Under the pieces are notes generated by a model. The model searched no databases, was not told where the DNA came from, and saw only the letters and a list, made by a program, of their open reading frames with translations. Below are positions 146 through 14,717 of a DNA stretch of 42,650 nt, one piece after another. The first letter of the stretch is position 1. Every line of letters begins with the position of its first letter. This stretch comes from Candidatus Nanopelagicales bacterium. Its GTDB lineage: Bacteria; Actinomycetota; Actinomycetes; S36-B12; UBA10799. The stretch spans positions 1 to 42,650 of the forward strand of contig JBIRBF010000002.1 of NCBI GenBank assembly GCA_044326505.1, given 5' to 3'. Both the position numbers and the translations under genes were made by a program.

Positions 146-2212
146 TCAAGTTCGTAATCGCTTGGCGAGCCGCCCCAGCATGCGAGCGATCATCGTCGAG
201 TTGACCAGATCGTCCTCCACCAGCAGCACCCGCAGCCCGGCCAAGGAGCCATCCGAGGGGAGGTCCCCCGGGGCCGCCGGCTCGGGGCGCGCGGCGACAG
301 GCATGGGCACTGACACGCGGAAGGTGGTGCCCTCGCCGATGGCACTGCTGGCGGAGATGCACCCGCCGAGCACATCCACGAGTTGTTTGGTGATGGCCAG
401 CCCCAGACCCGACCCGCCGTATTTGCGCGTGGTGGAGGCATCGGCCTGGACGAATGGCTGGAACAACGAATCAAGCTTCGCCTCATCGAAACCGACGCCG
501 GTGTCAGCCACCTCGACGAACAACTCGTCGGCTTCCCGACCCACCCGGAGGCGTACGCTCCCCTCGGCGGTGAACTTGACGGCGTTGCCAGCCAGGTTGA
601 GGATCACCGCACGCAGCTTCTCCCGGTCCCCGACGACGAACTCCGGCGTCGTGGGCAGCACATCGACTGTGACTGCGATGTCCTTCTCGCGGGCGACCGG
701 CGCCACGATCCGGGCACACTCCTCTGTCAACTCGGCCGGCGGGAACACCGTTTCATCGACCATGAGTTTGCTGGCCTCGCCCCTGGCCAGGTTGAGGATG
801 TCGTTGACCAGCGCCAGCAGCCGCTCGCCTGCCATGTGAGCCGTACCCACCAGCTGTCGTTGGTCGTCGTCGAGGTCGGTGTCGAGCAGGAGTTCGGTGA
901 GGCCGATCACGGAGGCCAGAGGGGTGCGGATCTCATGACTGGTGTTGGCCAGCAGGTCGCTCTTGGCTTGGGCGAGGGCGACGGCGGCATCGCGAGTGGA
1001 GACGAGCTCCTCCTCGAGCGCCTTGCTCGCGCTGATATCGACGATGGCAGCCAACGTGTGCGGCTGACCCTCCAGCGCGATGGTGGACAACGACACCTGC
1101 AGCGGAACCCGGCGTCCTCGCCGGGTGATGCCCACCACGTCGGTGCTGATGGCCATGGTGTGGGTGCCGTCACCCGAGCCTTGTTCGGTGAACCTGTGGC
1201 GGAGCTTGACGTGCCTTCGGCGCAGCTCGTCAGGCACGAGCATCTCGATCGACGTGCCCACAAGTTCGTCGTCTGGGTAGTCGAAGAGCCGCCCGGCCGC
1301 CGTGTTGACGTATGTGATCAGCCCCGCGGGGTCGACGACGATCATCGCGTTGGGCGCACTGGCGAGAATGCGAGTCGCAGTGCTGCGAGCCTCCCCGGCA
1401 GCGGACATGTCGCGCGCGGTGGCGAAGACCAGACTGCCGCCCGGATCCCCGATGGCGGACCATTGGAGGGCGCGCTCCCCATGGCTGGGGGAGTCGGTGG
1501 CCATTTCGAGGGTGAACACCTCGTCACTCCCGTCGGCCAGTTCGGCAAGTGCGCGCGCGAGTTCGCCAGGAGCATCCGTCCGGATCCACTGCCTGATGTT
1601 CGTGCCGACTAGCTCGGCGGGTCCCACCCCGAAGAGTCGCTCGCAGGCGTGGTTGGCCTGCCTGATCTGGCCGTCGCGGCCGGCGATCAACATGAGGTCC
1701 GGGGAGATGTCGAAGAACCGCTCGAGCCGCAGCAGTGGCTCCACCGCCTCGGCCTGCGCCCGCTGATAGGCCTGAAGCAGATGCAGCATGTCCACGATGG
1801 GGTCCTGCACCCCGTAGTCGGACAGTGTGAAGCCAGCCTCTTCGAACTCGGCGGTCGAGCCGATCCAGGGCGACCACGCCACCAGAAACCGCTCTCCCTC
1901 GTGGTCGGCTATCACCTGCCCGCGTAGACGCATCCCGCGACGCCGGTCGGTCGCCACGAAGAGTTGGCCCGCCAACCGTCTCAGCTGCTCCGCGGTGAGC
2001 GTGCCGAACAGGGTCACTGGTTCAAACAGCTCGGTGAACTCACAACCCACTGGGTCCTGACCCACCAACTTGGGCAGGGTCGAGCCCGCCGAGGTGATGT
2101 GCAGGTCCACGTCGAGGACGCAGTGGAACGGAAACAGGCGATCCATGATCGGTGTAAGACCGTCGAAATCCGGTTCGGGCATCAGATCACCACGTGAGGA
2201 GGAATTCGTCAT
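146..2212 (-). CDS. Hybrid sensor histidine kinase: HNOBA - PAS - PAS - HisKA - HATPase_c, with only a short stub of the C-terminal receiver
   Basis: ORF 146..2377. The N-terminus (FPFHCVLDVDLHITSAG ... MRLRGQVI ... FLVAWSPWI ... LSDYGVQDPIVDMLHLLQ) matches the H-NOX-associated (HNOBA) domain of soluble guanylate cyclases. There are two PAS-like blocks. H-box is NTSHEIRTP (His codon 935-937). ATP-lid motifs are DTGVGF and GGSGLGLAI. The protein ends LRVLLVEDDLVNSTMIARMLGRLA-KRLRT-stop, so the receiver is cut before its phospho-Asp. Start set at ATG 2212 (GGCGAGGA-like SD upstream, 26-nt overlap with the H-NOX stop). ATG 2182 is an alternative. Confidence 0.85.
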   Translation of the reverse strand: MTNSSSRGDLMPEPDFDGLTPIMDRLFPFHCVLDVDLHITSAGSTLPKLVGQDPVGCEFTELFEPVTLFGTLTAEQLRRLAGQLFVATDRRRGMRLRGQVIADHEGERFLVAWSPWIGSTAEFEEAGFTLSDYGVQDPIVDMLHLLQAYQRAQAEAVEPLLRLERFFDISPDLMLIAGRDGQIRQANHACERLFGVGPAELVGTNIRQWIRTDAPGELARALAELADGSDEVFTLEMATDSPSHGERALQWSAIGDPGGSLVFATARDMSAAGEARSTATRILASAPNAMIVVDPAGLITYVNTAAGRLFDYPDDELVGTSIEMLVPDELRRRHVKLRHRFTEQGSGDGTHTMAISTDVVGITRRGRRVPLQVSLSTIALEGQPHTLAAIVDISASKALEEELVSTRDAAVALAQAKSDLLANTSHEIRTPLASVIGLTELLLDTDLDDDQRQLVGTAHMAGERLLALVNDILNLARGEASKLMVDETVFPPAELTEECARIVAPVAREKDIAVTVDVLPTTPEFVVGDREKLRAVILNLAGNAVKFTAEGSVRLRVGREADELFVEVADTGVGFDEAKLDSLFQPFVQADASTTRKYGGSGLGLAITKQLVDVLGGCISASSAIGEGTTFRVSVPMPVAARPEPAAPGDLPSDGSLAGLRVLLVEDDLVNSTMIARMLGRLAKRLRT

Positions 2213-2741
2213 GGTCCGAGTCCTCGCCCTTGGCGGCAACCTGCGCGACCTCGGCTTGGACCCCGAACCGATCCGCCACCCCGCGGAGGAGGCCCACGAC
2301 GAAAGGAGCAAGCCCCTCTCGCTCGCTGTAGTAGGCGATCCGCAGCGCATCGCTGCCCGCTTCTGGAGTCTCGTCACGTACCTCGAACTGCGGCGGTCGG
2401 AATCCTGGGAAGATCAGCCCAACGCGCACGTGGAGGTTGTTCAGACTGCGGAGGAAGGTCCTCACGTCACTGCCGGCGGCCTCCATCAAGGTGCGGTACT
2501 GCGAATCTGCGAACGACACCACCCAGTAGCGGCCGAACTGCTCAAGGAGCGCGGCCGGCTCCTCGCCCAGCACCCGCGACGCCGCCCCCACGAGGGCGTA
2601 GCTTATGGAATCGTCGTAGGGCTCGTTGCTCACGAAGGTCAGCCCTGGATAGCCGGCGGCCGCGGTGACGCGGGTCCAGGTGTCGTCGCCGTGCTCCTGC
2701 TTGACCATCATGGCGAGGCCGAGGTTGACCATTCCGTACAT
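2187..2741 (-). CDS. Stand-alone H-NOX (haem nitric oxide/oxygen-binding) sensor protein
   Basis: 184 aa. Starts MYGMVNLGL..V....GDDTW and contains LNNLHVRVGLIFPGFRPPQF (proximal His104, codon 2430-2432) plus the YxSxR haem-propionate motif (YYSER, residues 137-141). Ends DHDEFLLTW, like bacterial H-NOX proteins. AAGGA SD lies upstream of ATG 2741. Sits immediately upstream of, and overlaps, the HNOBA kinase. Confidence 0.9.
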   Translation of the reverse strand: MYGMVNLGLAMMVKQEHGDDTWTRVTAAAGYPGLTFVSNEPYDDSISYALVGAASRVLGEEPAALLEQFGRYWVVSFADSQYRTLMEAAGSDVRTFLRSLNNLHVRVGLIFPGFRPPQFEVRDETPEAGSDALRIAYYSEREGLAPFVVGLLRGVADRFGVQAEVAQVAAKGEDSDHDEFLLTW

Positions 2742-2831: not shown

Positions 2832-3815
2832 TCATGCAGCTCCGCTGGTCCCCTCTCCGCCATCACGCCGGTTCCGCGGGCGCCCGACGTTCCTGGCGTA
2901 GACCCGCGACCGGGGCCTGACCTCGTCGCGGTAGGTGCTCGTCGAGTTGCGCCGGGCCAGCACCACCAGCGCGTCCTGCAGGGTGCGCAGGATGGTGGAC
3001 TTGCTCACCGACGACCCGGCCATGCGCTCCTTGAGTTCCACGGGCGCTGCGACTGCAGTGCTGTAACCAGCCGTCGAGGCTGCGACGAACACCTCGAGGT
3101 CAAACGCGAAGCGGGTCTCCCGCAGGCGTGGAAGAACGTCGGCGAGCACCTCCCGGCGGAACAACTTGCAGCCGGTCTGGGTGTCGTTGACCCCCAGTGA
3201 GAACAACAACCCCACCAGGCTGGAGAACCCCAGCGACACGAGTTTACGGAACGGGGACGAGGCCGAGATCGACTCACGGTGCTTCTTGTTGGCATAAACC
3301 ATGTCCGCGCCGGTGGCCCGTCCGGTCTTGAGGTACTCCACGAGGTGCGCCGGGTCGATGTCTCCATCAGAGTCCACAAACCCAACCCACGACCCGCGCG
3401 CACGGCAGAAGCCCGCGTGCAGGGCCCCGCCCTTGCCCCGGTTGGCCGGCAGTTCCACCACCCGCACCTCGGATCCGGCGCCCTCAAGGGTTGCCATTGA
3501 TCCGTCGGTCGAGCCATCCGAGACGACGATGAGCTCGAAGCCGATTCCCTCGGCCCGCATCACCTCCACCAGACGGTCCACCGCGGGCCGCAGCGCTTCG
3601 CCAGGGTTGTAGGCCGGCATGACCACCGTGATCTCGATCTCACGGTTGGCGGGCATCCACAGCCGGGACGACTCACTCCACACCGCCCTGGTCGGCTCCG
3701 GGCGCTCCTTAAGCAAGGCCCTGCCCACGAGGAACGCCGGCAGCAGCGCGACCCGTCTGAGCTGCTCAACAATCGTCGCGAACATGTGCGAGAGGCTCGG
3801 CAACTTGTCCTTCAT
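2832..3815 (-). CDS. Family-2 glycosyltransferase (polyprenol-phosphate sugar synthase / DPM1-GtrB-like)
   Basis: Motifs: ITVVMPAYN, VVSDGSTDGS, NRGKGGAL, FVDSDGD, DTQTGCKLFRR. Start moved to ATG 3815, which has a GGGAGG SD directly upstream. The longer ORF to 4223 runs antisense into the neighbouring response-regulator gene. Confidence 0.85.
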   Translation of the reverse strand: MKDKLPSLSHMFATIVEQLRRVALLPAFLVGRALLKERPEPTRAVWSESSRLWMPANREIEITVVMPAYNPGEALRPAVDRLVEVMRAEGIGFELIVVSDGSTDGSMATLEGAGSEVRVVELPANRGKGGALHAGFCRARGSWVGFVDSDGDIDPAHLVEYLKTGRATGADMVYANKKHRESISASSPFRKLVSLGFSSLVGLLFSLGVNDTQTGCKLFRREVLADVLPRLRETRFAFDLEVFVAASTAGYSTAVAAPVELKERMAGSSVSKSTILRTLQDALVVLARRNSTSTYRDEVRPRSRVYARNVGRPRNRRDGGEGTSGAA

Positions 3816-3951
3816 ACCTCCCACATTGGGCGATGCGCACCGCCGTAACAACACCGGGGGGTCAACGGGCTCCGAGATTGCGGCAACCACGTGACACAGA
3901 TGATGAATACCGTGGGCCTGCACGCCAAGTCCGCTCGCCCTAGCATGAGGT
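3816..3951. promoter_or_regulatory. Divergent intergenic/promoter region between the GT2 gene and the REC-GGDEF-HPt gene
   Basis: 136-nt gap that is locally more A/T-rich (agatgatgaatac). Contains the dyad CCACG (3887-3891) - N19 - CGTGG (3911-3915). A TANNNT-type hexamer TAGCAT (3941-3946) lies 5 nt before GTG 3952, which fits a leaderless or near-leaderless transcript. Confidence 0.3.
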
Positions 3952-5244
3952 GTGACTTTCCCTGACGATGGCTTCGAGGCCAAGCCGACGATCCTGGTGA
4001 TCGACGATGATCGCGTGCTCACCATGCTGATGGAACGACTGCTCGCCGCCACCGGCGAGGTGACCACCTCGAACTCCGGCGCCGAAGGTTTGCAACTGGC
4101 CCGCGAGATGGTCCCCGACCTCATCCTCCTCGACGTCCAGATGCCCGGCCAGGACGGCTTCGACATCATCAGCGAACTCAAGTCCGACCCCACGGTGCGC
4201 CACATTCCCGTGATCTTCATCACCGCCGAGGTGCTCCCCGAGATCGAGTCCCACTGCCTGGAGGCCGGGGCGGCCGACTACATCGCCAAACCCGTCACCC
4301 CGCGCGTGCTGCAGGCGCGGGCGCGCACCCACCTACTCATCAAGCATCAGGCCGACCAACTGGCGGACCTGTCGTTCCGCGACGCGCTTACCGGGGCACT
4401 GAACCGCCCAGCGTTCGAGGACGTGCTGGGCTGGGAGTGCGACCGGGCAGCCGCACGAGGGTGGCCGGTTTCGCTGCTGATCGTCGATCTCGACCAGTTC
4501 CGCGGCTACAACGAGGTGTACGGGCATCTGGCCGGCGACGACGTGCTCGAAGCTGTGGCCCAGGCGATCAGGCCGATCGCCGACCGACCCGGCGACCTGC
4601 TCGGACGCCTCGGCGGGGACCGTTTCGGCGTGCTGCTCCCTGAGACGGCATCCGATGTCGCCGTCGAGATCGCCGAGCGGATCAACGCTGCGGTTCGCCA
4701 GCTTCAGATTCGCCACACCCGGGCGCAGGCCGGCACCTTGACAGCCAGCGTCGGCGTCGCCAGCACGACAATGCCGGTGTCCGGCTCGGACATCGTGGAC
4801 CTGGCGGAGCGGATGGTGAGCCAAGCCAAGGCGGCGGGGCGCGACCGCGTCCATCCGGTCAGCCCGCACCCCGAACCGGCCGCTCCGTCCGTCGACGAAC
4901 GTCCCGCGGTGGACGAATCGATCCTGCTGACACTCGCCGACGACGTAGGTGACCGCGGTTTCGTCGAGGACACCGTCGAGGTGTATCTGGCCGAGTTGCC
5001 CGATCGCGTCGAGGGCCTCGTGGCAGCCCTGCGCCGGGCAGAGCCAGCAGAGGTACGCGCGCAGGCCCACTCACTGAAGTCGAGTTCGGCCATGCTGGGG
5101 GCGGTGGCGATGTCCAGGCTCTGCGCGGAACTCGAGCGGGTGGCCTCCGCCGGACCAGTGCCTGACCCCGACGCTCTGCAGCGGCGCGTGCGCGACGAGG
5201 CAGCCGCGGCGGAGGAGGGGCTAAGGTCCTTCTTGAGCAGTTGA
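3952..5244 (+). CDS. Response regulator REC - GGDEF (degenerate GGDRF A-site, intact RxxD I-site) - HPt
   Basis: REC: ILVIDDD ... LILLDVQMPG (Asp61, codon 4132-4134) ... KP. GGDEF domain: DALTGALNRPAF ... DLDQFRGYNEVYGHLAGD ... RPGD-LLGRL-GGDRF (codons 4612-4626). C-terminal HPt: AHSLKSSSAMLGA (His373, codon 5068-5070). GTG start. Confidence 0.9.
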   Translation: MTFPDDGFEAKPTILVIDDDRVLTMLMERLLAATGEVTTSNSGAEGLQLAREMVPDLILLDVQMPGQDGFDIISELKSDPTVRHIPVIFITAEVLPEIESHCLEAGAADYIAKPVTPRVLQARARTHLLIKHQADQLADLSFRDALTGALNRPAFEDVLGWECDRAAARGWPVSLLIVDLDQFRGYNEVYGHLAGDDVLEAVAQAIRPIADRPGDLLGRLGGDRFGVLLPETASDVAVEIAERINAAVRQLQIRHTRAQAGTLTASVGVASTTMPVSGSDIVDLAERMVSQAKAAGRDRVHPVSPHPEPAAPSVDERPAVDESILLTLADDVGDRGFVEDTVEVYLAELPDRVEGLVAALRRAEPAEVRAQAHSLKSSSAMLGAVAMSRLCAELERVASAGPVPDPDALQRRVRDEAAAAEEGLRSFLSS

Positions 5245-5817
5245 CGCGCCTGCATTCCGGCGCTGCCTGCGCACCCGCGTGAGCGCCACAGCCGCCCCAA
5301 TCACGGCGAACGCCCCCACCACCCACGGCACGAAGGTGGACGGGGCCAATCCAGAGGGCTTGGGCGGGACGGACCCCACCAGGGTCCGCGTCGTCCCCGA
5401 CGGCGACAGCCCGACGGCCAGCACGCTCGCCCCCGGCGGCACACCCTCGGTCCGGGCAGCCGGAACGGTCACCTCCAAGGTTCCCGTGGTGTCGGTCTTG
5501 CGCTCGAGGTCGGCGACTTCGCCCACCTGGACCTTGATCTTGGTCAGCTGGCGAAACCCCAGGCCGACGATGGTCAGGTTGGGCCCTTGCACGACCCCGA
5601 CGCGATCGGGATCCTGCGAGGGACCCCCGCCCGGGGGCACCACAGGCGGGTCGAACGGCGCCGCCACCACGGCTGTGCCCGGATCTGTCCAGGTGACGCT
5701 CAAGTCACCGGCGTTTCCCCCGTAGCCAGGACCTTCCGCCAGCGCGGGACCAGCACCCAGCAGCGCCGACGCGCCGAACACGGCACTGGCGGCTACCCCG
5801 GCAAGAACACGGCCCAT
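5221..5817 (-). CDS. Secreted hypothetical protein with a C-terminal transmembrane anchor
   Basis: Start at ATG 5817, with GGAGG just upstream. Signal-peptide-like MGRVLAGVAASAVFGASALLGAGPALAEG. Pro/Gly-rich, beta-rich middle. C-terminal hydrophobic helix VPWVVGAFAVIGAAVAL followed by RVRRQRR. No recognisable family. The 3' end overlaps the convergent gene by 24 nt. Confidence 0.55.
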   Translation of the reverse strand: MGRVLAGVAASAVFGASALLGAGPALAEGPGYGGNAGDLSVTWTDPGTAVVAAPFDPPVVPPGGGPSQDPDRVGVVQGPNLTIVGLGFRQLTKIKVQVGEVADLERKTDTTGTLEVTVPAARTEGVPPGASVLAVGLSPSGTTRTLVGSVPPKPSGLAPSTFVPWVVGAFAVIGAAVALTRVRRQRRNAGASTAQEGP

Positions 5818-5863: not shown

Positions 5864-7111
5864 GTGGAGCAAGCGCACCTGCTGACTGGAGAGCAGATGA
5901 CGACCGCTGAGGCGCCGCCTTCGAGACTGGGACGTGGACTGTCGCGCCTTGCCGCGCCGCTGCTCATCGCGGTGGCGATCCAGAGTCTCGCCAACCTCAT
6001 CTTCCACGCTGTGGTGGGACGCACCCTGACCCCCTCGGACTACGGCGCTCTGGGTGCGGTCCTGGCTGCGATGACGCTCGTCGCGGTGCCGTTGACAGCC
6101 CTGCAGACCGCGGCGGCACGCACAAGCGCAGCGGGCGGCCTCACCCGGAGCACCTCGTGGCGGGCCATCAACCGGACCTTCCTGCTGTCCCTGCCCGCGG
6201 TCCTCGTCCTGGTGGCCCTGGCGGTCCCCATCCGCGAGTTCCTGTCGCTGCACTCGACGTTCGACGCGGCGATCCTCGCCCCGACCCTGCTCACCGCGAC
6301 GGTGATCGCCGTGGCGCGCGGGCTCCTGCTGGGCGACGGGCGCAGCGGAGTCGTGGCAGCGTCGTTCATCGTCGCCACCGTGGTCCGCCTGGGTCCAGGT
6401 CTCGTCCTGGCCCACTATTGGGGCGTCACGGGCGCGCTCATCGCAACGCTTGCCGGCGAAGTCGCCGGGCTGGCTGTGGTCCTGTGGGTGGCCCTGCGGG
6501 CTCCAACTGGAGCGCTCACCCGTCTCACCGGCTCCGACGTGGCGAAGACGGGTGCCGTGGTCGCCGGACTGTTCGCGTTCTCCACGGTCGATCTCTTCCT
6601 CGCCCGGCACTTTCTCGTGGGCACCGAGTCGGGCTACTACGTCGCCGCGGCCACTATCGGCAAGACCATCCTGGCGCTGCCGGCGGCCGCGCTGTCGGTG
6701 GCCTACCCGAAACTCGTCGCCGCCTGGCCCAGCAGCCACCGATTCGCCTCGCTGCGTTCGGCCCTGCTGGTCGTGGGGCTTCCTGCGGTGGCGGGCATCG
6801 CGGTGGTGGCGCTCTTACCTGGCCTCGTGCTTACACTCCTCTACGGCAGCGGGACGTTCGATGCGGCAGCAGACCTCACCAGGGTGCTGGCAATAGTCGC
6901 CGGGATGAGCGCGTTCGTGAGCGTCTTCGCCCACGCCGCGCTGGCGCGCGAGTCGCGTTGGGCGCTCTTCCCCTGGTTCGCGGCGGCTGTGGAGGTAGTG
7001 ATCATCAGTTGGCGGCACGCGGACATGATGCAGGTGGCCCAGGGCGCTGTGGTCGCCCTCGTGATCGCCTTGCTGGGCCTGGGGCTGCGGGAAGTGCGAG
7101 CGTGGCGATGA
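5864..7111 (+). CDS. Polytopic membrane protein, MOP-superfamily (Wzx-like) oligo/polysaccharide flippase
   Basis: 415 aa, hydrophobic throughout (about 12 predicted helices by eye). The N-terminal LSRLAAPLLIAVAIQSLANLIFHAVVGRTLTPSDYGALG is typical of polysaccharide-biosynthesis flippases. GTG 5864 (ATG 5897 is an alternative). The stop overlaps the next start as ATGA (7108-7111). Confidence 0.65.
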   Translation: MEQAHLLTGEQMTTAEAPPSRLGRGLSRLAAPLLIAVAIQSLANLIFHAVVGRTLTPSDYGALGAVLAAMTLVAVPLTALQTAAARTSAAGGLTRSTSWRAINRTFLLSLPAVLVLVALAVPIREFLSLHSTFDAAILAPTLLTATVIAVARGLLLGDGRSGVVAASFIVATVVRLGPGLVLAHYWGVTGALIATLAGEVAGLAVVLWVALRAPTGALTRLTGSDVAKTGAVVAGLFAFSTVDLFLARHFLVGTESGYYVAAATIGKTILALPAAALSVAYPKLVAAWPSSHRFASLRSALLVVGLPAVAGIAVVALLPGLVLTLLYGSGTFDAAADLTRVLAIVAGMSAFVSVFAHAALARESRWALFPWFAAAVEVVIISWRHADMMQVAQGAVVALVIALLGLGLREVRAWR

Positions 7112-8961
7112 AGTCCGAGGACATCAACCTCGTCGAGCTGCTGGATTTCCGCCCCGAGTCCGGGCAAATCCTGCTCAATGGGCATCGCATGCTCATGTTC
7201 AGCCAGCGCGCTCTGGCGACCCTCAGAGAGTTGATCGTGACCCACCTCGGCCACGAGTTCGCCGCCGCGATCCTCACCCAGTTCGGCAACACGTGCGGCC
7301 GCGAGGACTTCGCGAGCATCGCAGCCGAGAGCGAGTGGGACTCCGACGCCGACCGGATCGCGTCCGGACCCGTCCTGCACAGTTGGGAGGGCATCGTGCA
7401 CGTGACACCCACCGCATTGGAGTATGACCGAACCACCGGCGAATTCCTCATGGCTGGGCAGTGGCGCAACTCCTACGAGGCCCAGAACTACCGGAGGAGT
7501 TTCGGCCCCAGCGAGCACCCCGTGTGCTGGTCGCTTGCCGGCTACGCGTCGGGCTGGTCGAGCGCGTTCTTCGGCGCCGAGTTGTTGGCCATCGAGACCA
7601 GCTGCACGGCGATGGGCGACGACCTATGCCGCTTCGAGATCCGTCCGAGGGACAGGTGGGGACCCATCGCCGACCCCTGGCGGCGCGCACAGAGTGCAAC
7701 CCCTGAATCAGTGACCTCTTACATGGAGGAACTCGTCACGGCACGCACGGCGGAACTCGCCATGTCCAACCAGCGTCTTTCTGACGCTCGGGACGCCGCC
7801 GAGCGAGCCAACAGAGTCAAAGGGCAGTTTCTGGCCAATATCAGCCATGAGCTGCGCACCCCCATGAACGGCGTGGTGGGCCTCGCCGAGGTGCTGCGCG
7901 ACTCGGACCTCGATGACGATCAACGACGTCTCGTCGATCTGATCATCGATTCGGCTGCTCAGGAGGTGGCCGTGGTGAGCGACATCCTCGACTACGCCAC
8001 GATCGAGTCCGCAACACCCGTCGCCGAGCGCTCCCCGGTGGACCTCGACGAGGTGCTGAGCGCGATGGTATCCGCGTACGCACCGCTCGCGGCCACAAAG
8101 GGGGTTCTGCTCTTACGCCGGCCGAGCCCCGACGCCGCACCCACGGTGCTCACCGACAGAGGCAAACTCAAACAGATCCTTGCCACGATCGTCAGCAACG
8201 CGATCAAGTTCACCCCGCCCGCGGGAAGCGTCGAGTTGTACTGCCGAGTCAACTCACACGACGTGGCCATTGCGATCGCTGACACCGGGATAGGCATCTC
8301 CGAGGATGCGGTGGAGGAACTCTTCGCGCCCTTCGAGCAGGCCGACGTATCACGCACCCGCAGGTTCGGCGGCACCGGTCTGGGCCTGGCGATCTGCCGC
8401 GAACTGGCGAGCGTCATCGGGGCCCGGGTGGAGGTGAGCAGCGTCCTGGGCGAGGGATCGACGTTCCTCATCACGCTGCCTGGCAGGCCCATAGCCGCGT
8501 CCGCGGCGACAGGGGGCACCCAAGCCCTTCACCCCGCCCACCTGAGCGGGAAAGGCGACGGCCCCGCCGGGTCGCTCAAGGTCCTCGTGGCAGACGACAA
8601 TCGCATCAACGCACTGGTCATCAGCCGGCTGTTGCAGTCGTTGGACTGCCAGGTCACGGCCGTGGGCGACGGGATGGAGGCGATCGCCGCCTTCGATTCC
8701 GGCGAGTTCGACCTCGTCGTGCTGGACCTGCACATGCCCGAGGCCGACGGGATCGACGTCGTGCGGCACATCCGTCGCTGCGAGAGCGCCGCGCATGCGC
8801 CGCCGCATTACGTGGCTGCCCTCACCGCCGACGCGTTCGCCGAGACTCGCGAGCGCTGCCTCGCGGCTGGCTTCTCCGACTTTCTCACCAAGCCCATCCG
8901 TAAGGAACGGGCGCTCCAACTCGTCGCCGATGCATCGGTCAGTGCCCGGTCGCGGTCCTGA
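7108..8961 (+). CDS. Hybrid histidine kinase with a XylR/DmpR-type A-domain (XylR_N + V4R) sensor - HisKA - HATPase_c - REC
   Basis: The N-terminus aligns by eye with the DmpR/XylR effector domain: [64 protein letters not shown]-box [18 protein letters not shown]. Also [18 protein letters not shown]: VLVADDN ... [13 protein letters not shown] ... TKP. ATG 7108 is in frame with ORF 6157..8961, whose upstream part is a shadow of the flippase gene. Confidence 0.9.
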
Positions 8962-11900
8962 GCCAGGGGTCAAGCGCGGCGCGAAGACCCTGCAGTGTGT
9001 AGGGCTTGGTGAGGTAGGAGTCCATCCCCGCGGCGAGACATTCCTCCTCCGTGCCGGCCATTGCGTCGGCGGTGAGGGCAACCACCGGGGTGCGCCGCCC
9101 ATCCTCACGCAGGCGCAAGGCGCGGGTGGCCTCGAAGCCGTCCATCACGGGCATCTGACAGTCCATGAGCACCAGGTCGAAGTCCGCCTGGAGCATCCGC
9201 GCAAGCGCCTCGGCCCCGTCGTGGGCGACTTCACACTCGACTCCCAGCCGAGCCAGCATTCCCTCGCCCACACGGCAGTTTGTGATGTTGTCCTCCACCA
9301 ACAAGACCTTGCCCTCGAGATGCCCGTCCGCCTTCGCTTCGACCCGATCGACGGAGGTGCGACCCTGCGTCGGCCCGGTGGTCGACGACGTGCCGAGCAG
9401 CTCGCCCACGGTGGCGCGCACCGTCGCCAGCCTCAGCGGCTTCTGCAGCCTCGCGTCGAAGACACCTACGGCCGGGTCGGAGTCGGACAAGCCCGTGGAG
9501 GTCACGAGCACCAGGGGGATGCCCGCCAGCGCCTCGTATCCCCGGATACGTGCGGCGAGCTCGGCTCCGCTGAGCTCCGGCATCTGCATGTCCAGCATCG
9601 CCGCGTCGAAGGGGCGGCCGGACACTGCGGCACCGACGAGCATGCGCCAAGCCTCCAGGCTTCCGCTGGCAGTCGATGTCACCATGCCCATGTCGGCGAG
9701 GTAGGTCGCCAGCACCACCCGGTTGGTGTCGTTGTCATCGACGACGAGCACCCGCCGTCCCGCCACACCGGCCACATCCGGCGGAGCCGCGGGCGCGTCG
9801 GAGACCACCCCGAGCGGCACCTCGAAGCTGAACGTAGTCCCGACCCCTTCGGCGCTGGTCACCCAGATTCGGCCATCCATGAGCGCCACCAACTGCTTGC
9901 AGATGGTCAGACCGAGACCGGTACCCCCGAACCGTCGGGTGGTCGTCGTGTCACCCTGCGCGAATGACTCGAAAATTCCCGTCAACTTGTCCTGCGCGAT
10001 ACCCACACCGGTGTCGGCGACGTCACACCGGACCCTGACCTCGTCCGTTTCCGACGACACCAGCCTCACGGCCACGGCGACCTCCCCCGCACTGGTGAAC
10101 TTGACCGCGTTGCCGACGAGGTTGGACATCACCTGCCGGAGGCGCGTGGGATCGCCGAGTGTCAGCTGCGGGCAGTCGGCGGTCACGAGGCAGGAGATTT
10201 CCAGGCCCCGGGACAGCGCCTGCCCGGAGAACAGCGCCGTCACGTCTTCGGCGAGGGACCTCAGGTCGAAGGGGATTCGCTCGATGCGGACCTTGCCCGC
10301 CTCTATTCGGGAGAAGTCGAGGATGTCGTTGATCACCGTCAGCAGCACCTCCGCTGACGACTGCGCCACAGTGAGGTACTCGTGCTGCCGAGCGTCGAGG
10401 TCGGTCACGCCGAGCAGGTCGAGCATGCCCAGGACCCCGTTCATGGGGGTGCGAATCTCGTGGCTCATGTTGGCCAGGAACGCAGACTTGGCTTGGGCCG
10501 CGTCTTCGGCAGCCTTGCGCGCGTCCACCGCGGCCCGACGTGCGTCCTCGGCGGCCCGCCAGGCACGATCCTCCGCGATCGACAGGGCCATCATGTCCCC
10601 GATCGCCAGCACGGCGTCGCGCAGGGAGTCGTTGCGTACGATGGGTCCCTCGGCGAACAGGGCCAGGTGACCGACGAGCCCCGGTTCGGGGCTGATGGGA
10701 ATCACCATCCCCATCACGGCATCCGATGTGGGCCCTCCAGCATCAGGCCCGATCCGCAACGGCCCCTCGACGCTGCCCAGCGGTCGGCCCAGGCTCGCCT
10801 CGACCCGGTCCACCCAGCTGTCGGCGTGGGGGCCGTAGGCCAGTTCCAAGTCGGGCACGCCCAAGTCCGAAACGCCCACTCGAAGACCCCCGCTCCAACG
10901 CCCCCCCTCATCGGTGACCAACTCCTCACAGAGGATCCGCAGCACCGACTCGAGCCGCTCCGCCAGCTCGGACGAGCCGTGCAGGGCCGCACCGCATTCC
11001 ACTCGCAGTCGCGCCGCCAGGGCCTCGCCTCGCTGGCGCCCCTCCCGCCTCACAGCTTCCGAGATGTCGCGCTGCAGCGCGACGTACCCGAGCAGGTCCC
11101 CCGAGGATGAGAAGTAGGGCGCAATCGTGGACTGCACCCAGAAGTCCTCGCCGGAGTCCCCCGCATCCGCGTCGTCCGTTGCGACGCGGCGGCGGTTGAC
11201 CAGGCGTCCGCTCCATGGACGCCCAGATGCCAGCCTGGCCCACATCGCCTCGTAGACGACCGGGTCGGTGCGGCCGCTCTTGAGCACCTGCGGCGTCTGA
11301 CCCAGGATATCCGTCCGAGACCACCCTGTGATCTCCGCGAAAGCCTGGTTGGCGTACTCGATGGTGCCGTCGGGCGCGGTGATGTAGATGGCGTCGGCGC
11401 TGGCATCCACCGCAAGCGCCAGACGGCGCAGCCTGCGGTCGTCGTCGATGCGGTCGCTGATATCGCGGATCGTCAGCCCGATCGCCGCAAGTGCACCCGC
11501 CTCACGGATGGGGAACATCAGCAGGGACACGGGCACCGTGGAACCATCTGCGGACTTGAGCAGCGCCTCGTCGTCGCGCACCGCCCCCTCTGCGCCGAGA
11601 TGCGCTCCGATGGCCGAAGCGTCAGCGTCGAGCCACGGCGTCGGACCACTCAGGGCCAGGCGCGGCAGGATGCGGGCACCGATCGACAGGGGACCCAGAA
11701 GGTCCTCCGCCGCGGGGTTCCACGAGCGCACGCCGCCTTCGAGATCGAGCCGGACGAAGCCGTCGGAGAGCGCATTGATGATCGCCGAGAGCCGATCGCG
11801 CTCGGCCGCTACCCGGGTGTCGGCGCGTCGGCGGAGCTCCGCGTTGAGTTCAGTCATCTCGGCAGCCACGGTGCTCATGGAACGCTGCAACAGATATCGG

Positions 11901-12037
11901 TCCTGGCTGCCCTCCTCGTAGGCCTTGGACACCCTCGCCAGGAGCGCCTGCCACTGGCCTGCGTCCGCCGGCGGGTCCTCCGCTTTGAGCTTCAGCCGAT
12001 CGAGTTGGCGGCGCAGCGTCGGGTGAATCGCATCCAT
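8939..12037 (-). CDS. Large hybrid histidine kinase: coiled-coil N-terminus - PAS x2 - GAF-like - HisKA - HATPase_c - REC - REC
   Basis: 1032 aa. PAS block [26 protein letters not shown]-box [18 protein letters not shown]. Also [15 protein letters not shown]. Two receivers ([18 protein letters not shown] and [23 protein letters not shown]). No HPt. Starts 8 nt after the FIST gene stop. Confidence 0.9.
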
Positions 12038-12045
12038 CTCGGACC

Positions 12046-13173
12046 TCAGACCTCGTGGAACGTCGTGAGGGTCATCGTCTGGTTGTGCAGCTCACACACA
12101 CCGGTCACCGTCGGTGATAGCTCGCCGTAGGAGTAGAAGCCCACCTGCAGACTGCCGGGCGGCAGGGTCTGCATCGTGCGTTCGAGTTCCTCCTCAGTGC
12201 TCTCCCCCAACACCATGCGACGTCCCACGCACGAGATCGCCACGGCCAAGACTGGCGGGCCCGAAGTCGTGGGCGACGCTTGCTCGGCGGCGTCGAGGGC
12301 ACCATCGACCAGTTGCTCCGACCCTGCCCCCATCAACTGCGCGAGCCAGCCCTGCGGAACGTCCCCGGCGAAGATCATGGCGCCCGAGGACTCGTCCACT
12401 CCGAGCAGCGTGCGCACCAAGGCGCGCGGCGAATCGGGGGACTCGCGCACCGCCAGGGGGAACCGGAGGCCGCTTGCCGGCAGATTCTCGGCCAGGTCTC
12501 CGAGGTACTGGCGGTAAAGCGCAAGCGCTGGGCGATCGTCAAGTTCCAGTAGTACGTTGCCCTGCGACTTGGTGATGAGACGCTCGGGGCCGAACCCCTC
12601 CCAACCGCCCCGCGATCCATGGCCGATTCGGATGCGGTCGCCGTAGAAGCCAACCGCGGTGGCCACACCCTCCTGCGCCCTGCCCCCGGCGATCACCCAC
12701 GTGCCTTCGAAGTCCGTCCCGTCTCCGGCGAGCCCACCCGTGACCAGCACCTGCGGGGGTAGTCCCGCGGCGAGCCCCCGCACGAGGTCGCTGCCATTGA
12801 CCTGCAGACCCGGAGCGACCACCAAGACCGCACGCAGACCTTCCTGGACAAACTGGGCGCCGAGAGCCCGCCCGCATGCGAGGGATTCCGAGGGTTCGGT
12901 CAGCGGCGCCGAAACTGAGGCGAGAGTGGTGCCGTCGAAGCGCACGACTGCAGCAGTGACCGTGTGGTCGAAGACCCCGTCGCCCAGAATCTCGCCAGCA
13001 CTCGAGCAGCCCAGGTGCACCGACTGTGGGAACCGTGCCAACAACTCGCCGATCCGCTCACGCTCGTCCCGGCCGCCGAAGGCCAGCACCAGCGTGCTGG
13101 GGCCGTCAAGTTCCGTCGGCGGCGCAGCCACCCAGCGGCCGTGCCCGTCCAGTTGGCATCGGCGCATCTGCAT
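12046..13173 (-). CDS. FIST (FIST_N + FIST_C) sensory domain protein
   Basis: Motifs: [12 protein letters not shown] (FIST_N) and [11 protein letters not shown]....[15 protein letters not shown] (FIST_C hallmark). Start placed at ATG 13173 (GGAGG 5 nt upstream). GTG 13215 is the longest option. Confidence 0.85.
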
Positions 13174-13304
13174 CCTGACCTCCACCTCGGCGCCCACCCG
13201 CGGCGCCTGCGACACCGACGCGGTCGGCTGCGCCCCTCCAGTGTGGCATGCACAGGTCTAGCCGGATCCTCCCCCCAGCGCCCCCGACCAGGCATCCGAG
13301 TGGT

Positions 13305-13721
13305 TCACGTGAGCCAACGGGCACCGAGCTGCTCGATACCCTCGACGAGCCCGGCGGCAGCACCGCGAGGCACCACCGGACCGGGTGTCCACGCGAGCGC
13401 GTCGAACGGGCATACCTCCACACAGACGCCGCAGAACATGCACAGGCCGAAGTCGATCGCGAAGGCGTCCAGCACCTTGACCTTGCGCGTCCGTCCGCGC
13501 GGCCGGCCGCTGCCCGGCGCCGTCGGATCACCAACAGGCTGCTGCTCCTCGACGTGCGCGGCCAGCGAGATGCACCAGGTGGGGCACTCGGCCACACAGA
13601 TGTTGCAGGCGGTGCAGGCCGGCGGCAGCAAGGCGATGGCGCCATGCGGGGCGATCGGGTTCAGGTCCGTCCGGCCCTCCGTCGCCCCGGCCGGGTCCTT
13701 GGCGCTCACGGACGCTCCCAT
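13305..13721 (-). CDS. NuoI-like 2x[4Fe-4S] ferredoxin (paralogue, not part of the main nuo operon)
   Basis: Two CxxCxxCxxxCP motifs: CTACNICVAECP and CMFCGVCVEVCP, the second in the NuoI-type context IDFGLCMFCG. ATG 13721 is used here. GTG 13709 (GGGAG SD 5 nt upstream, GTGA overlap with the upstream stop) is at least as good. The TTG 13778 of the ORF track is unlikely. Confidence 0.75.
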   Translation of the reverse strand: MGASVSAKDPAGATEGRTDLNPIAPHGAIALLPPACTACNICVAECPTWCISLAAHVEEQQPVGDPTAPGSGRPRGRTRKVKVLDAFAIDFGLCMFCGVCVEVCPFDALAWTPGPVVPRGAAAGLVEGIEQLGARWLT

Positions 13722-14212
13722 TCCTTGTTGATTCCCGGCACTCGGGCGCGCCGGCCTGCCTCTCGGGCGCCAGGCCAAGGGGTGCTCAGCCGGCGCTCCA
13801 AGGGCGTGCCGCGCCGCAGCGGTGGCGGAGTTCCGGCCGGCAGCAGCAGCGGCCGATGATCCCCGCCGACGAACCGCACCCCGAGCATCTCGGCCGTCTC
13901 GCGCTCGTGCCAGTCCGCACCCTCGAACACCTCGCGCACGCTCTCCAGGTCCTCGTCCGCGCCCAACTGCGTGCGCACCAGCACATCCTCGTACTCGGTC
14001 TGCACGAGCGCGACAACCTGGGTGCCCCCCGATCCGTCATCAACTCCGCCGAGCCAGTCGAGCCAGGCACCCACGTCACGCGCCGCGCGCAGCACCACCG
14101 GCCAACTCGCCGGCTCCACGTCCAGGCACCCGACGCCGGCGGCATCCCCGAGTGACTCACTCGAGCCGGACTCCGCGGCCCGCAGCACCACATCGAGCAG
14201 CAGCCCACTCAT
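13706..14212 (-). CDS. NuoC-like (complex I 30-kDa subunit family) paralogue
   Basis: 168 aa. GADWHERETAEMLGVRFVGGDHRPLLLP....PLRRG parallels the authentic NuoC of this window ([28 protein letters not shown]...PQRKD). ATGA overlap with the upstream NuoB-like gene (14209-14212). Confidence 0.7.
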   Translation of the reverse strand: MSGLLLDVVLRAAESGSSESLGDAAGVGCLDVEPASWPVVLRAARDVGAWLDWLGGVDDGSGGTQVVALVQTEYEDVLVRTQLGADEDLESVREVFEGADWHERETAEMLGVRFVGGDHRPLLLPAGTPPPLRRGTPLERRLSTPWPGAREAGRRARVPGINKEWERP

Positions 14213-14709: not shown

Positions 14710-14717
14710 GAGGTCGA

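What the first reader, a model, noticed from the sequence alone, without database searches (positions are those of the whole stretch)
3952..5244. Unusual REC-GGDEF-HPt fusion with a degenerate active site (GGDRF) but an intact RxxD inhibitory site
Seen in sequence: the receiver has all key residues (DD, D61, T, K). The GGDEF domain has its signature as G-G-D-R-F (codons 4612-4626). RPGD sits exactly five residues upstream, which is the I-site spacing. A C-terminal HPt carries HSLKSSS.LGA. Established knowledge: the fourth residue of GG(D/E)EF contributes to metal and substrate coordination, and substitutions there normally abolish cyclase activity. RxxD I-sites bind c-di-GMP. HPt domains shuttle phosphate between REC domains. 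Inference: the protein may act as a c-di-GMP-sensing (not c-di-GMP-making) node in which nucleotide binding gates HPt-mediated phosphotransfer, or as a phosphorelay hub. A GGDEF domain sandwiched between REC and HPt is not an architecture I recognise from characterised proteins.
Basis: partly seen in the sequence, partly recalled or inferred. Interest (0 to 1): 0.65.

Follow-up and report, generated by a model that had tools for sequence, protein, structure and literature searches.

The report
Phosphorelay carrier fused to dead cyclase regulator
In one uncultured freshwater actinobacterium, the genome's only phosphate-carrier (HPt) domain has been joined to a response regulator whose c-di-GMP-making domain is inactive, and this fusion shows which proteins probably work together to control a conserved sugar-transferase gene.

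Summary
ORF 3952-5244 (+) encodes a 430-aa REC–GGDEF–HPt protein. All REC residues are intact, the GGDEF signature reads GGDRF, RPGD sits five residues upstream, and the HPt fold is confident with His373.

- **The GGDRF motif is a family trait, not a private mutation.** A deep actinobacterial clade of ~305-aa REC–GGDEF proteins carries Arg or Gln at motif position 4 and an eroded active site. Its receiver is 100% conserved. It always sits divergent from one GT2 glycosyltransferase (8 of 8 loci).
- **The HPt is a species-specific, in-frame fusion.** The join lies at a synteny breakpoint. Independent metagenome assemblies span it.
- **The genomic setting points to one relay.** This is the genome's only HPt, and it lies beside the genome's only two hybrid kinases. 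In a Nanopelagicales MAG the homologous HPt is the C-terminus of the orthologue of one of those kinases, in the same cluster as REC–dGGDEF and GT2.

Best reading (inferred): hybrid kinases → His373 → Asp61 → non-catalytic GGDEF output acting on the GT2, possibly also sensing c-di-GMP at the I-site. Gating of HPt by c-di-GMP is untested. I rate this a new variant of a known kind, of moderate interest.

The parts
3952..5244 (+). REC-dGGDEF-HPt fusion gene (430 aa, GTG start)
   Evidence: Contiguous in independent metagenome contigs.
3991..4323 (+). Receiver domain (residues 14-124). The phospho-acceptor Asp61 is at nt 4132-4134.
   Evidence: Pfam E 7.5e-25. D18/D19/D61/T91/K113 are invariant in 56 of 56 family members.
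4300..4377 (+). Long helix linking REC to GGDEF (residues 117-142), of DgcR/WspR type
   Evidence: AF2 model helix 117-142 with pLDDT >90. The best global fold match is DgcR 6zxb, TMt 0.79.
4375..4848 (+). GGDEF domain (residues 142-299) with a degenerate A-site
   Evidence: Pfam E 2.3e-35. Aligned to PleD.
4585..4596 (+). RPGD, the RxxD I-site motif (residues 212-215), five residues before the signature
   Evidence: Aligns to PleD R359-D362. Partners R243 (PleD R390) and R165 (PleD R313) are present.
4612..4626 (+). GGDRF signature (residues 221-225). Arg224 replaces the metal-binding Glu (PleD E371).
4858..4914 (+). Disordered linker (residues 303-321) that contains the fusion junction and synteny breakpoint
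   Evidence: pLDDT <50 at residues 309-318. Relatives' REC-dGGDEF genes stop 4-6 codons after GRDRV, whereas the window reads on into sequence homologous to the REC-HPt linker.
4915..5238 (+). HPt helical bundle (residues 322-429). The phospho-accepting His373 is at nt 5068-5070.
   Evidence: Pfam Hpt E 7.9e-16. AF2 pLDDT 97.2 and Foldseek matches to HptB and 3myf. The motif is invariant.
2832..3815 (-). GT2 glycosyltransferase (about 327 aa from ATG 3815), divergently transcribed. It is the conserved partner of the REC-dGGDEF family.
   Evidence: Pfam Glycos_transf_2 E 1.2e-23. Orthologues at 65-85% identity lie divergent from REC-dGGDEF in 8 of 8 relatives' loci. Start and Shine-Dalgarno site.
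3816..3951 (.). 136-nt divergent intergenic (promoter) region between the GT2 gene and the fusion gene
   Evidence: Coordinates. Relatives have 78-144 nt gaps.
7108..8961 (+). XylR_N/V4R-HisKA-HATPase-REC hybrid kinase, one of only two hybrid kinases in the genome
   Evidence: An orthologue (48% identity over 618 aa) lies next to GT2/REC-dGGDEF in the G426 MAG.
8939..12037 (-). PAS-HisKA-HATPase-REC-REC hybrid kinase that lacks its own HPt
   Evidence: The full-length orthologue in G426 (45% identity over 1014 aa) continues into an HPt that is 41% identical to the window's HPt.
12046..13215 (-). FIST-domain sensor protein upstream of the PAS hybrid kinase
   Evidence: Pfam FIST/FIST_C. The same FIST-to-PAS-kinase order occurs in G426.
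5221..5817 (-). Secreted protein with a C-terminal anchor, convergent with the fusion gene and overlapping it by 24 nt. It travels with the HPt gene in relatives.
   Evidence: No Pfam family.
5864..7111 (+). Multi-pass Wzx/Polysacc_synt-like membrane protein that overlaps the kinase start (ATGA)
   Evidence: Weak Pfam Polysacc_synt hit of 28.8 bits. About 12 hydrophobic segments. Syntenic with HPt in relatives.

Best explanation
The gene is a recent, in-frame fusion of two separately conserved genes.

The first part (residues 1-302) belongs to an actinobacterial family of orphan response regulators, REC - coiled coil - degenerate GGDEF. This family has Arg or Gln at signature position 4. It is always encoded head-to-head with one GT2 glycosyltransferase.

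The second part (residues ~303-430) is the cell's only HPt domain. In other lineages this HPt is either the C-terminus of the PAS hybrid kinase or a small (pseudo)REC-HPt protein.

Proposed mechanism:
1. The two hybrid kinases autophosphorylate and pass phosphate to their own receivers. These are 7108-8961 (XylR_N/V4R sensor) and 8939-12037 (PAS sensor, with FIST upstream).
2. The phosphate moves to His373 of the tethered HPt.
3. From there it moves to Asp61 of the same protein, or of its dimer partner.
4. Phosphorylation rearranges the DgcR/WspR-like coiled-coil dimer.
5. The GGDEF domain cannot make c-di-GMP because the metal ligand Glu is replaced by Arg. It acts as a regulatory or adaptor output on the GT2 (cell-envelope glycan synthesis). 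It probably also reads c-di-GMP through its complete I-site, as PopA, PelD and PssE do.

Shown here: the domains, the residues, the fusion history, its reality, the genome census and the conserved neighbourhoods.

Inferred: the direction of phosphotransfer, the loss of cyclase activity, c-di-GMP binding, and action on the GT2.
For: Domains and residues.

Family-wide degeneracy with a 100% conserved receiver:
- Among 56 close relatives, position 4 is R in 39, Q in 9 and E in 5.
- The first Gly is A, S or T in 44.
- K332 is lost in most, and R446 is Gly in 16.
- D18/D19/D61/T91/K113 are kept in 56 of 56.
- The window protein lies inside a clade of 54 with 99% SH-aLRT support.

GT2 pairing: 8 of 8 loci, from genus level to Nanopelagicales level.

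Fusion at a synteny breakpoint:
- The left block, GT2 with REC-dGGDEF, and the right block, HPt / secreted protein / Wzx-like / hybrid kinases, are on different contigs or places in relatives.
- The junction lies just after the natural stop position of relatives' REC-dGGDEF genes.

Reality and selection:
- Independent contigs span the junction.
- Strain variants in the gene are 7 synonymous to 3 conservative non-synonymous, including the HPt part.

Census of the window's genome: 1 HPt, 12 kinase cores and 19 receiver ORFs, and only 2 hybrid kinases, both adjacent to the fusion gene. There are 17 GGDEF proteins, mostly with intact motifs and many with EAL domains, so c-di-GMP is probably present in the cell.

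Independent linkage in MAG G426: REC-dGGDEF, GT2, the XylR_N hybrid kinase, FIST and PAS-HK-REC-REC-HPt all lie within 10 kb. REC-dGGDEF is the only non-kinase receiver in that cluster. That kinase is the orthologue of window 8939-12037, and its HPt is homologous to the window's HPt.

Co-occurrence: an HPt is present in all 6 searchable genomes that have a REC-dGGDEF orthologue. By contrast, a homologue of this HPt segment was found in only 20 of 401 genomes of the class.
Against: - No biochemical data exist for any member of the family.
- The window protein keeps every A-site residue except E371 (K332 is Arg), so residual or altered nucleotide chemistry, or GTP binding, cannot be excluded.
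- The I-site is only moderately conserved in the family: R359 in 45 of 56, D362 in 42 of 56 and R390 in 33 of 56. c-di-GMP sensing may therefore not be the family's core function.
- Phosphotransfer between HPt and REC is reversible, so the direction His373 to Asp61 is not proven.
- The relative placement of HPt in the full-length AF2 model is not confident (pTM 0.67, disordered linker).
- The GT2 link rests on gene neighbourhood only. The protein has no DNA-binding or transmembrane domain, so the mode of action on GT2 is unknown.
- The fusion is seen in one species only, so it could be selectively neutral.
- Three same-genus genomes have the HPt but no REC-dGGDEF orthologue. The HPt must serve other acceptors there.
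Confidence: 0.55

Rival explanations
1. The relay runs the other way. Asp61 is the upstream receiver (D1), fed by a non-hybrid kinase such as the H-NOX-associated PAS kinase at 146-2377. It passes phosphate to His373, which then serves other response regulators. On this view the fusion restores a working REC-HPt unit in a genus where the REC of the REC-HPt protein had decayed, and the dGGDEF is a passenger or modulator.
For: - The closest HPt relatives outside the genus are intact REC-HPt proteins (P0123-P0125, P0127) or HK-REC-HPt proteins (P0126).
- Same-genus relatives have a truncated pseudo-REC without an acceptor Asp.
- An HK without its own receiver lies 1.5 kb away.
Against: - The two hybrid kinases already supply D1 receivers and need an H2, and this is the only HPt.
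- Residues 1-302 are orthologous to the GT2-paired family, which is an orphan terminal regulator in genomes where HPt sits on a kinase.
- The H-NOX kinase block is not syntenic with either half in relatives.
Confidence: 0.15
2. The fusion is neutral or accidental. A rearrangement joined two genes at domain boundaries. Both halves keep their former, unrelated jobs (HPt for the hybrid kinases, REC-dGGDEF for the GT2) without direct phosphotransfer between them.
For: - The fusion is confined to one species among 41 relatives and 400 class genomes.
- The junction is a flexible 20-residue linker.
- The HPt exists without REC-dGGDEF in G001, G008 and G009.
Against: - The same components are clustered in an unrelated arrangement in G426. 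This is not expected for unrelated functions.
- HPt is present wherever REC-dGGDEF is present, in 6 of 6 genomes.
- Variation in the gene is mostly synonymous across populations.
Confidence: 0.15
3. The protein is still a diguanylate cyclase, or makes another nucleotide product, with a non-canonical GGDRF site. It would be controlled by phosphorylation and by product inhibition at RPGD.
For: - All substrate-binding residues other than E371 are kept, with K332 as Arg.
- The window protein is the least degenerate member of its clade.
- The sister branch P0005 has GGEEI.
Against: - Position 4 Glu is a metal ligand. It is invariant in 62 of 62 canonical comparators, and its substitution is generally held to abolish activity (established knowledge of GGDEF enzymology).
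- Clade relatives additionally lose G368, E370, K332 and R446. This shows that catalysis is not what selection maintains.
- 'GGDRF' does not occur in the searched literature.
Confidence: 0.05
4. The fusion is an assembly or binning chimera that joins two unrelated contigs.
For: - The genome is a 270-contig MAG.
- The junction coincides with a synteny breakpoint.
Against: - Contigs assembled independently from runs of different studies span the junction. X1 is a 6652-nt contig. X3 is a 4384-nt contig with 9 strain SNPs. X5 also spans it. None shows an indel or a break.
- The join is in frame, lies at domain boundaries, and has no repeat.
Confidence: 0.02

Closest known systems
PopA (Caulobacter) and PelD (Pseudomonas): degenerate-GGDEF c-di-GMP effectors that bind the ligand at the RxxD I-site
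   Same: The cyclase signature is inactive while RxxD is kept five residues upstream. PopA also has PleD-like receiver domains in front of the GGDEF domain.
   Different: PopA's receivers are not known to be phosphorylated, and it has no HPt. PelD is a membrane GAF-GGDEF protein. In the window protein the receiver is fully intact, an HPt is attached, and c-di-GMP binding is untested.
PssE (Listeria, PMC4125290), YdaK (B. subtilis, PMC5422440, PMC7064775) and BcsE (E. coli, PMC7439463): degenerate GGDEF I-site receptors encoded with GT2 polysaccharide synthases
   Same: A degenerate GGDEF with RxxD is genetically coupled to a family-2 glycosyltransferase. PssE binds c-di-GMP with a Kd of 0.79 uM and is required for EPS synthesis.
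   Different: Those receptors lack a phosphorylatable receiver (BcsE has a degenerate REC*) and lack an HPt. Their GT2 partners are processive membrane synthases. The GT2 here is ~327 aa, has one hydrophobic stretch, and gives only weak hits to polyprenyl-phosphate sugar synthases and to PgaC.
DgcR (Leptospira), WspR and PleD: REC-coiled coil-GGDEF diguanylate cyclases
   Same: Same fold and same REC-helix-GGDEF layout for residues 1-302. Foldseek gives TMt 0.79 to 6zxb, and PDB sequence E-values reach 1e-50.
   Different: NCBIfam scores are far below the family cut-offs: PleD 202 against 474, and DgcR 154 against 500. The catalytic Glu is Arg. None of these enzymes carries an HPt.
HptB pathway of Pseudomonas aeruginosa (hybrid kinases to HptB to HsbR/HsbA to the cyclase HsbD; PMC5085249), and unorthodox kinases (ArcB, BarA, TorS) with HK-REC-HPt
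   Same: One HPt collects phosphate from several hybrid kinases and links them to GGDEF-type signalling. The HPt fold is closest to HptB (TM 0.86). The ancestral state of this HPt is an unorthodox-kinase tail.
   Different: In this protein the HPt is covalently attached to the presumed terminal regulator rather than to a kinase or standing free. The GGDEF partner is non-catalytic.
P0076-type HPt-REC-GGDEF-REC proteins (metagenomic, uncharacterised)
   Same: They combine the same three Pfam domains in one chain.
   Different: The HPt is N-terminal, the GGDEF motif is intact (GGDEF), identity is only 36%, and the branch is long and separate in the tree. This is an independent origin.

Membership tests
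GGDEF domain superfamily (PF00990) | Match to the domain HMM above the gathering score, and the fold | tested here: met
   122.2 bits against a cut-off of 23.8. AF2 pLDDT ~97, and TM 0.9 to the WspR GGDEF domain.
Active diguanylate cyclases | Intact GG(D/E)EF signature with Glu at position 4 (metal ligand) | tested here: not met
   GGDRF. Glu is present in 62 of 62 canonical comparators.
Active diguanylate cyclases | c-di-GMP synthesis from GTP | not testable with these tools
   Needs an enzyme assay.
I-site c-di-GMP receptors with degenerate GGDEF (PopA/PelD/PssE type) | RxxD five residues upstream of the signature, plus partner arginines | tested here: met
   R212 and D215, with R243 and R165 aligned to PleD R359, D362, R390 and R313 (residue roles from PMC12943098).
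I-site c-di-GMP receptors with degenerate GGDEF (PopA/PelD/PssE type) | Measured c-di-GMP binding | not testable with these tools
   Needs DRaCALA, ITC or equilibrium dialysis.
Response regulator receiver (PF00072) | HMM match and the acidic pocket, acceptor Asp, Thr and Lys | tested here: met
   87.7 bits. D18, D19, D61, T91 and K113 are present.
HPt domain (PF01627) | HMM match, helical-bundle fold, and a solvent-exposed His in the H-x-x-K-G/S-type motif | tested here: met
   58.5 bits against a cut-off of 24.6. His373 lies in AHSLKSSS, on helix 365-382. Foldseek matches HptB and 3myf.
PleD family (NF007135) / DgcR (NF047654) equivalogs | Whole-protein score above the curated cut-off | tested here: not met
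   202.3 against 474, and 153.8 against 500.
Actinobacterial GT2-paired REC-dGGDEF clade (defined here; I found no published name) | Placement inside the clade, Arg/Gln at signature position 4, and a divergent GT2 neighbour | tested here: met
   Clade support is 99% SH-aLRT. Arg224 is present. The GT2 orthologue is at 2832-3815.
Actinobacterial GT2-paired REC-dGGDEF clade (defined here; I found no published name) | Length of ~300 aa, ending a few residues after the GGDEF domain | tested here: not met
   The window protein continues for 128 more residues into an HPt.

The most novel reading that the evidence does not exclude
Because the cell's single HPt is welded to a nucleotide-binding but non-catalytic GGDEF domain, c-di-GMP at the I-site (or GTP at the Arg-substituted A-site) could lock the dimer. 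That would physically gate access of His373 to the kinase receivers or to Asp61. The second-messenger level would then throttle all multistep phosphorelay flux in this organism. A phosphorelay gated by a second messenger at the HPt step has, as far as I know, not been described.

A corollary concerns the wider family. The GT2-paired REC-xGDR(F/L) clade of freshwater and wastewater actinobacteria would be an undescribed class of phospho-switched regulators of envelope glycosylation.
Probability: 0.1. Interest if true: 0.8.

Novelty: new variant of a known kind. Interest (0 to 1): 0.45.

Why it matters
The fusion works as a natural 'Rosetta stone'. Together with the gene cluster in a Nanopelagicales MAG, it ties four components into one predicted pathway:
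- two differently sensing hybrid kinases;
- a single HPt;
- an orphan receiver with a dead GGDEF domain;
- a conserved GT2.

This pathway lies in abundant but uncultured freshwater and wastewater actinobacteria, for which almost no signalling biology is known.

It also defines a sizeable clade of degenerate GGDEF regulators. In this clade the receiver is strictly conserved and an Arg replaces the catalytic metal ligand. That clade is a concrete target for asking what non-catalytic GGDEF domains do in Actinomycetota.

Finally, the HPt is found in three places across lineages: on the kinase tail, on a (pseudo)REC-HPt protein, and on the regulator tail. This is a clear example of domain mobility within one phosphorelay.

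Tried and rejected
- **Downstream HPt gene with a lost stop codon.** I asked whether relatives carry an HPt gene directly downstream of REC-dGGDEF, so that a simple stop-codon loss would explain the fusion. They do not. Their downstream genes map to other contigs of the window genome (C117, C228, C32). The event was a rearrangement, not a read-through.
- **Assembly chimera.** Rejected on independent contigs.
- **Literature search.** 'GGDRF' and 'REC-GGDEF-HPt', 'GGDEF-HPt' and 'HPt-REC-GGDEF' gave zero papers. This is absence from that library only.
- **Römling et al. 2013 review.** I tried to read it for the residue roles, but it is not held. The role of position 4 therefore rests on established knowledge and on the 62 of 62 conservation in comparators.
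- **Full-length Foldseek search.** It was dominated by REC-GGDEF hits and said nothing about the HPt. I refolded the HPt alone.
- **Candidate GGDEF-HPt hits in G035 and G117.** Both proved to be ordinary HK-REC-HPt kinases.
- **Metatranscriptome contigs.** They cover only four short fragments of the gene. This is weak evidence of transcription, and none links GGDEF to HPt.
- **Organism name.** The genome-contig scan returned only 'uncultured Actinomycetes' or 'Actinomycetota' titles.
- **Limits of the tools.** I could not query InterPro or CDART for the domain architecture. I could not obtain model coordinates or PAE to measure the His373-Asp61 distance.
Full report
**1. Observation**

The ORF 3952-5244 (+) starts with GTG and encodes 430 aa. 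Pfam finds three domains, all well above the gathering scores:
- Response_reg at residues 14-124 (E 7.5e-25);
- GGDEF at residues 142-299 (E 2.3e-35);
- Hpt at residues 342-422 (E 7.9e-16).

In the alignment to PleD structures, GGDRF (221-225, nt 4612-4626) lies on GGEEF, and RPGD (212-215) lies on the I-site RAID. I mapped PleD residues through that alignment. D327, N335, H340, D344, R366, K442 and R446 are kept, as are the I-site partners R390 and R313. K332 is Arg. Only E371 is radically changed, to Arg. The receiver has D18/D19, D61, T91 and K113.

A full-length AlphaFold2 model has mean pLDDT 90.3:
- REC and GGDEF score about 97.
- A long connecting helix runs from 117 to 142.
- A disordered linker runs from 303 to 321.
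- A five-helix C-terminal bundle carries His373 on helix 365-382.

Residues 1-302 superpose best on DgcR (6zxb, TMt 0.79), then on WspR and PleD. Folded alone, residues 318-430 give pLDDT 97.2. They match solved HPt domains: HptB 7c1i with TM 0.86, and Shewanella 3myf with TM 0.82.

**2. The GGDRF motif is a family trait**

The closest relatives among 5.8 billion proteins are ~305-aa REC-GGDEF proteins from actinobacterial MAGs, some labelled Nanopelagicales. They are 52-67% identical, and none has an HPt. Their signature is almost never canonical: AGDRF, SGDRL, TGERL, SGNRL, SGHQF, SVGRF and similar.

I compared 56 close relatives with 62 canonical comparators:
- Position 4 is R in 39, Q in 9 and E in 5 of the relatives. 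It is E in 62 of 62 comparators.
- The first Gly is A, S or T in 44.
- K332, H340 and R446 are frequently lost.
- The five receiver residues are kept in 56 of 56.
- The I-site is kept only moderately: R359 in 45 of 56, D362 in 42 of 56 and R390 in 33 of 56.

A maximum-likelihood tree puts the window protein inside a clade of 54 with 99% SH-aLRT support. Its earliest branch, P0005, still reads GGEEI. One small subclade that reads GGDEF or GSDEF has lost RxxD, which reads NPGE there.

Selection in this clade therefore maintains a phosphorylatable receiver and the GGDEF fold, but not cyclase chemistry. The window protein is the least eroded member.

**3. A conserved partner: a GT2**

In all eight relatives' loci examined, a GT2 gene lies head-to-head with the REC-dGGDEF gene. 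It is 65-85% identical to window 2832-3815 and is separated from the regulator gene by roughly 80-145 nt. The loci are three same-genus genomes, one genome of the same order, HK-STAS-ACTI-17, GCA_964267805, an ENA contig, and a Nanopelagicales MAG.

In the window the GT2 most likely starts at ATG 3815, behind a GGGAGG site, giving 327 aa and a 136-nt divergent spacer. It has one hydrophobic stretch. It gives only sub-threshold NCBIfam hits to PgaC/IcaA and to polyprenyl-phosphate sugar synthases such as ArnC, PgfS, AglJ and PpgS. Its product cannot be named.

**4. The HPt is a species-specific fusion at a synteny breakpoint**

In 40 related genomes no other protein covers residues 1-430. Orthologues of residues 1-300 end at about 300-308. 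HPt homologues (47-54% identical to residues ~305-430) lie elsewhere in those genomes.

In same-genus relatives the HPt is the C-terminal half of a 228-245-aa protein. The N-terminal half of that protein is a truncated receiver without an acceptor Asp, and Pfam sees only Hpt. More distant HPt relatives are intact REC-HPt proteins or HK-REC-HPt kinases.

The gene order to the right of the window junction is conserved in relatives: HPt, convergent secreted protein, Wzx-like membrane protein, hybrid kinases. The pair on the left, GT2 with REC-dGGDEF, lies in other neighbourhoods.

Relatives' REC-dGGDEF genes stop 4-6 codons after the GRDRV motif. The window reads on from GRDRVH into a Pro/Ala-rich linker and then into '...AVDESILLTLADDVGDRGFV', which matches the REC-HPt linker.

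The join is real:
- Logan contigs from different studies span it without indels. X1 is 6.6 kb. X3 is 4.4 kb and differs from the window at nine positions. X5 also spans it.
- About 20 freshwater, wastewater and sediment runs hold the sequence.
- Ten strain variants inside the gene are 7 synonymous and 3 conservative (T38I, L220I, A363E).
- Fragments of the gene appear in metatranscriptome assemblies. This is weak evidence of transcription.

An exhaustive HMMER search of 1.84 billion representative proteins with the HPt part found stand-alone HPt, REC-HPt and HK-REC-HPt architectures among the best 154. None had a GGDEF domain. A scan of 400 genomes of the class found no second GGDEF-to-HPt fusion, and the two candidates were ordinary unorthodox kinases. 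One metagenomic protein, P0076, has the same three domains, but in the order HPt-REC-GGDEF-REC and with an intact motif. It is an independent invention.

**5. Genomic logic of the relay**

The window's genome is 95% complete and 2.65 Mb. Its census:
- It has exactly one HPt domain, the one in this protein.
- It has 12 kinase cores and 19 receiver-bearing ORFs.
- Only two ORFs carry both a kinase core and a receiver. Both lie in the window: the XylR_N/V4R hybrid kinase at 7108-8961 (+), and the PAS hybrid kinase with two receivers at 8939-12037 (-), preceded by a FIST protein.
- It has 17 GGDEF proteins, mostly with intact motifs and many with EAL domains. c-di-GMP signalling is therefore probably active. 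This is the only REC-GGDEF protein.

The decisive comparison is with MAG G426, the source of P0050. Within 10 kb it has REC-dGGDEF head-to-head with GT2, then a beta-helix protein, the XylR_N/V4R hybrid kinase, FIST, and a 1149-aa PAS-HK-REC-REC-HPt kinase. That kinase is a full-length orthologue of window 8939-12037 (45% identity over 1014 aa). The window kinase stops right after the second receiver. The extra HPt in G426 is 41% identical to the window's HPt, including the lead-in and the AHSLKSS motif.

The same HPt has therefore sat in three places:
- on the kinase tail (G426);
- on a small (pseudo)REC-HPt protein (the window's genus);
- on the tail of REC-dGGDEF (the window's species).

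In G426 the only non-kinase receiver in the cluster is REC-dGGDEF. Every searchable genome with a REC-dGGDEF orthologue also has an HPt, 6 of 6. By contrast, a homologue of this HPt segment was detected in only 20 of 401 genomes of the class. These counts are phylogenetically non-independent.

**6. Mechanism**

Most likely (confidence about 0.55):
1. The hybrid kinases sense their signals through the XylR_N/V4R pocket and the PAS/FIST modules.
2. They phosphorylate their own receivers.
3. Those receivers pass phosphate to His373.
4. The tethered HPt delivers it to Asp61, in cis or across the dimer.
5. As in DgcR and WspR, phosphorylation repositions the coiled-coil dimer.
6. The GGDEF pair lacks the metal-binding Glu and cannot make c-di-GMP. 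It serves as a regulatory surface acting on the GT2.
7. The complete I-site allows c-di-GMP to be read as a second input, as in PopA, PelD and PssE. PssE binds c-di-GMP with a Kd of 0.79 uM and is needed for EPS synthesis (PMC4125290).

Shown: the anatomy, the fusion history, the census and the neighbourhoods. Inferred: the direction of transfer, the lack of catalysis, ligand binding, and the target.

Rivals:
- The relay runs in the reverse direction, with Asp61 as the upstream receiver (0.15).
- The fusion is a neutral tether of unrelated functions (0.15).
- Cyclase activity is retained or altered (0.05).
- The fusion is an assembly chimera (0.02).

I carry it as the novel case (about 0.1).

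**7. Comparison and novelty**

Degenerate GGDEF I-site receptors are known, some of them paired with GT2 synthases: PopA, PelD, PssE, YdaK and BcsE. HPt hubs for several hybrid kinases are also known (the HptB pathway and unorthodox kinases).

New here:
- a clade-wide Arg/Gln-4 signature combined with a strictly conserved receiver and an obligatory GT2 neighbour, in uncultured Actinomycetota;
- the covalent attachment of the cell's only HPt to the presumed terminal regulator.

I found no publication on either point. The search library is incomplete, and InterPro could not be queried. I classify the finding as a new variant of a known kind, with moderate interest (0.45).

Noticed in passing
window 2187-2741 (-) and 146-2377 (-): A stand-alone H-NOX protein (Pfam HNOB, E 7.6e-42) overlaps the start of an HNOBA-PAS-PAS-HisKA-HATPase kinase. 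The kinase has no complete receiver. This NO/O2-type sensor pair is unusual for an actinobacterium. It is not syntenic with either half of the fusion gene in relatives.
   Followed up: partly
L017 1919-2656 (-), L018 4521-5207 (-), P0122: Same-genus relatives carry the HPt on a 228-257-aa protein. Its N-terminal half is a truncated pseudo-receiver: 'DLVVLPADPPG', no acceptor Asp, and the alpha3-beta4 region missing. More distant relatives (P0123-P0125, P0127) have an intact REC-HPt.
   Followed up: partly
L091 (G426:C22) 12654-16103 (+) compared with window 8939-12037 (-): The PAS hybrid kinase exists as an unorthodox HK-REC-REC-HPt kinase in a Nanopelagicales MAG. In the window's lineage it is an HPt-less HK-REC-REC. 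This is a documented domain fission within one orthologous group.
   Followed up: yes
window 7108-8961 (+): A hybrid histidine kinase uses a XylR_N plus V4R module as its sensor. That module is the effector-binding domain of sigma-54 aromatic-responsive activators. The kinase start overlaps the stop of the Wzx-like gene (ATGA at 7108-7111). Orthologues are present in G009 and G426.
   Followed up: partly
window 5221-5817 (-): A family-less protein with a signal peptide and a C-terminal hydrophobic anchor is convergent with the fusion gene and overlaps it by 24 nt. It is conserved next to the HPt gene in three same-genus relatives, at 43-68% identity.
   Followed up: partly
L088 2951-3895 (-): In the locus of family member P0042, a separate 314-aa GGDEF-only protein follows the conserved GT2 in the same orientation. 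It could be a local c-di-GMP source for the GT2/REC-dGGDEF pair.
   Followed up: no
proteins P0041, P0038, P0008 (tree): Within the degenerate clade, the subclade that retains or regained a near-canonical signature (GGDEF, GSDEF) has lost the I-site, which reads NPGE instead of RPGD. This hints at a trade-off between A-site and I-site integrity.
   Followed up: no
window 2832-4223 (-) long ORF: The 463-aa ORF called mechanically for the GT2 overlaps the start of the fusion gene on the opposite strand. Its first ~136 residues are antisense to the receiver and are 'conserved' only for that reason. The true start is probably ATG 3815.
   Followed up: yes
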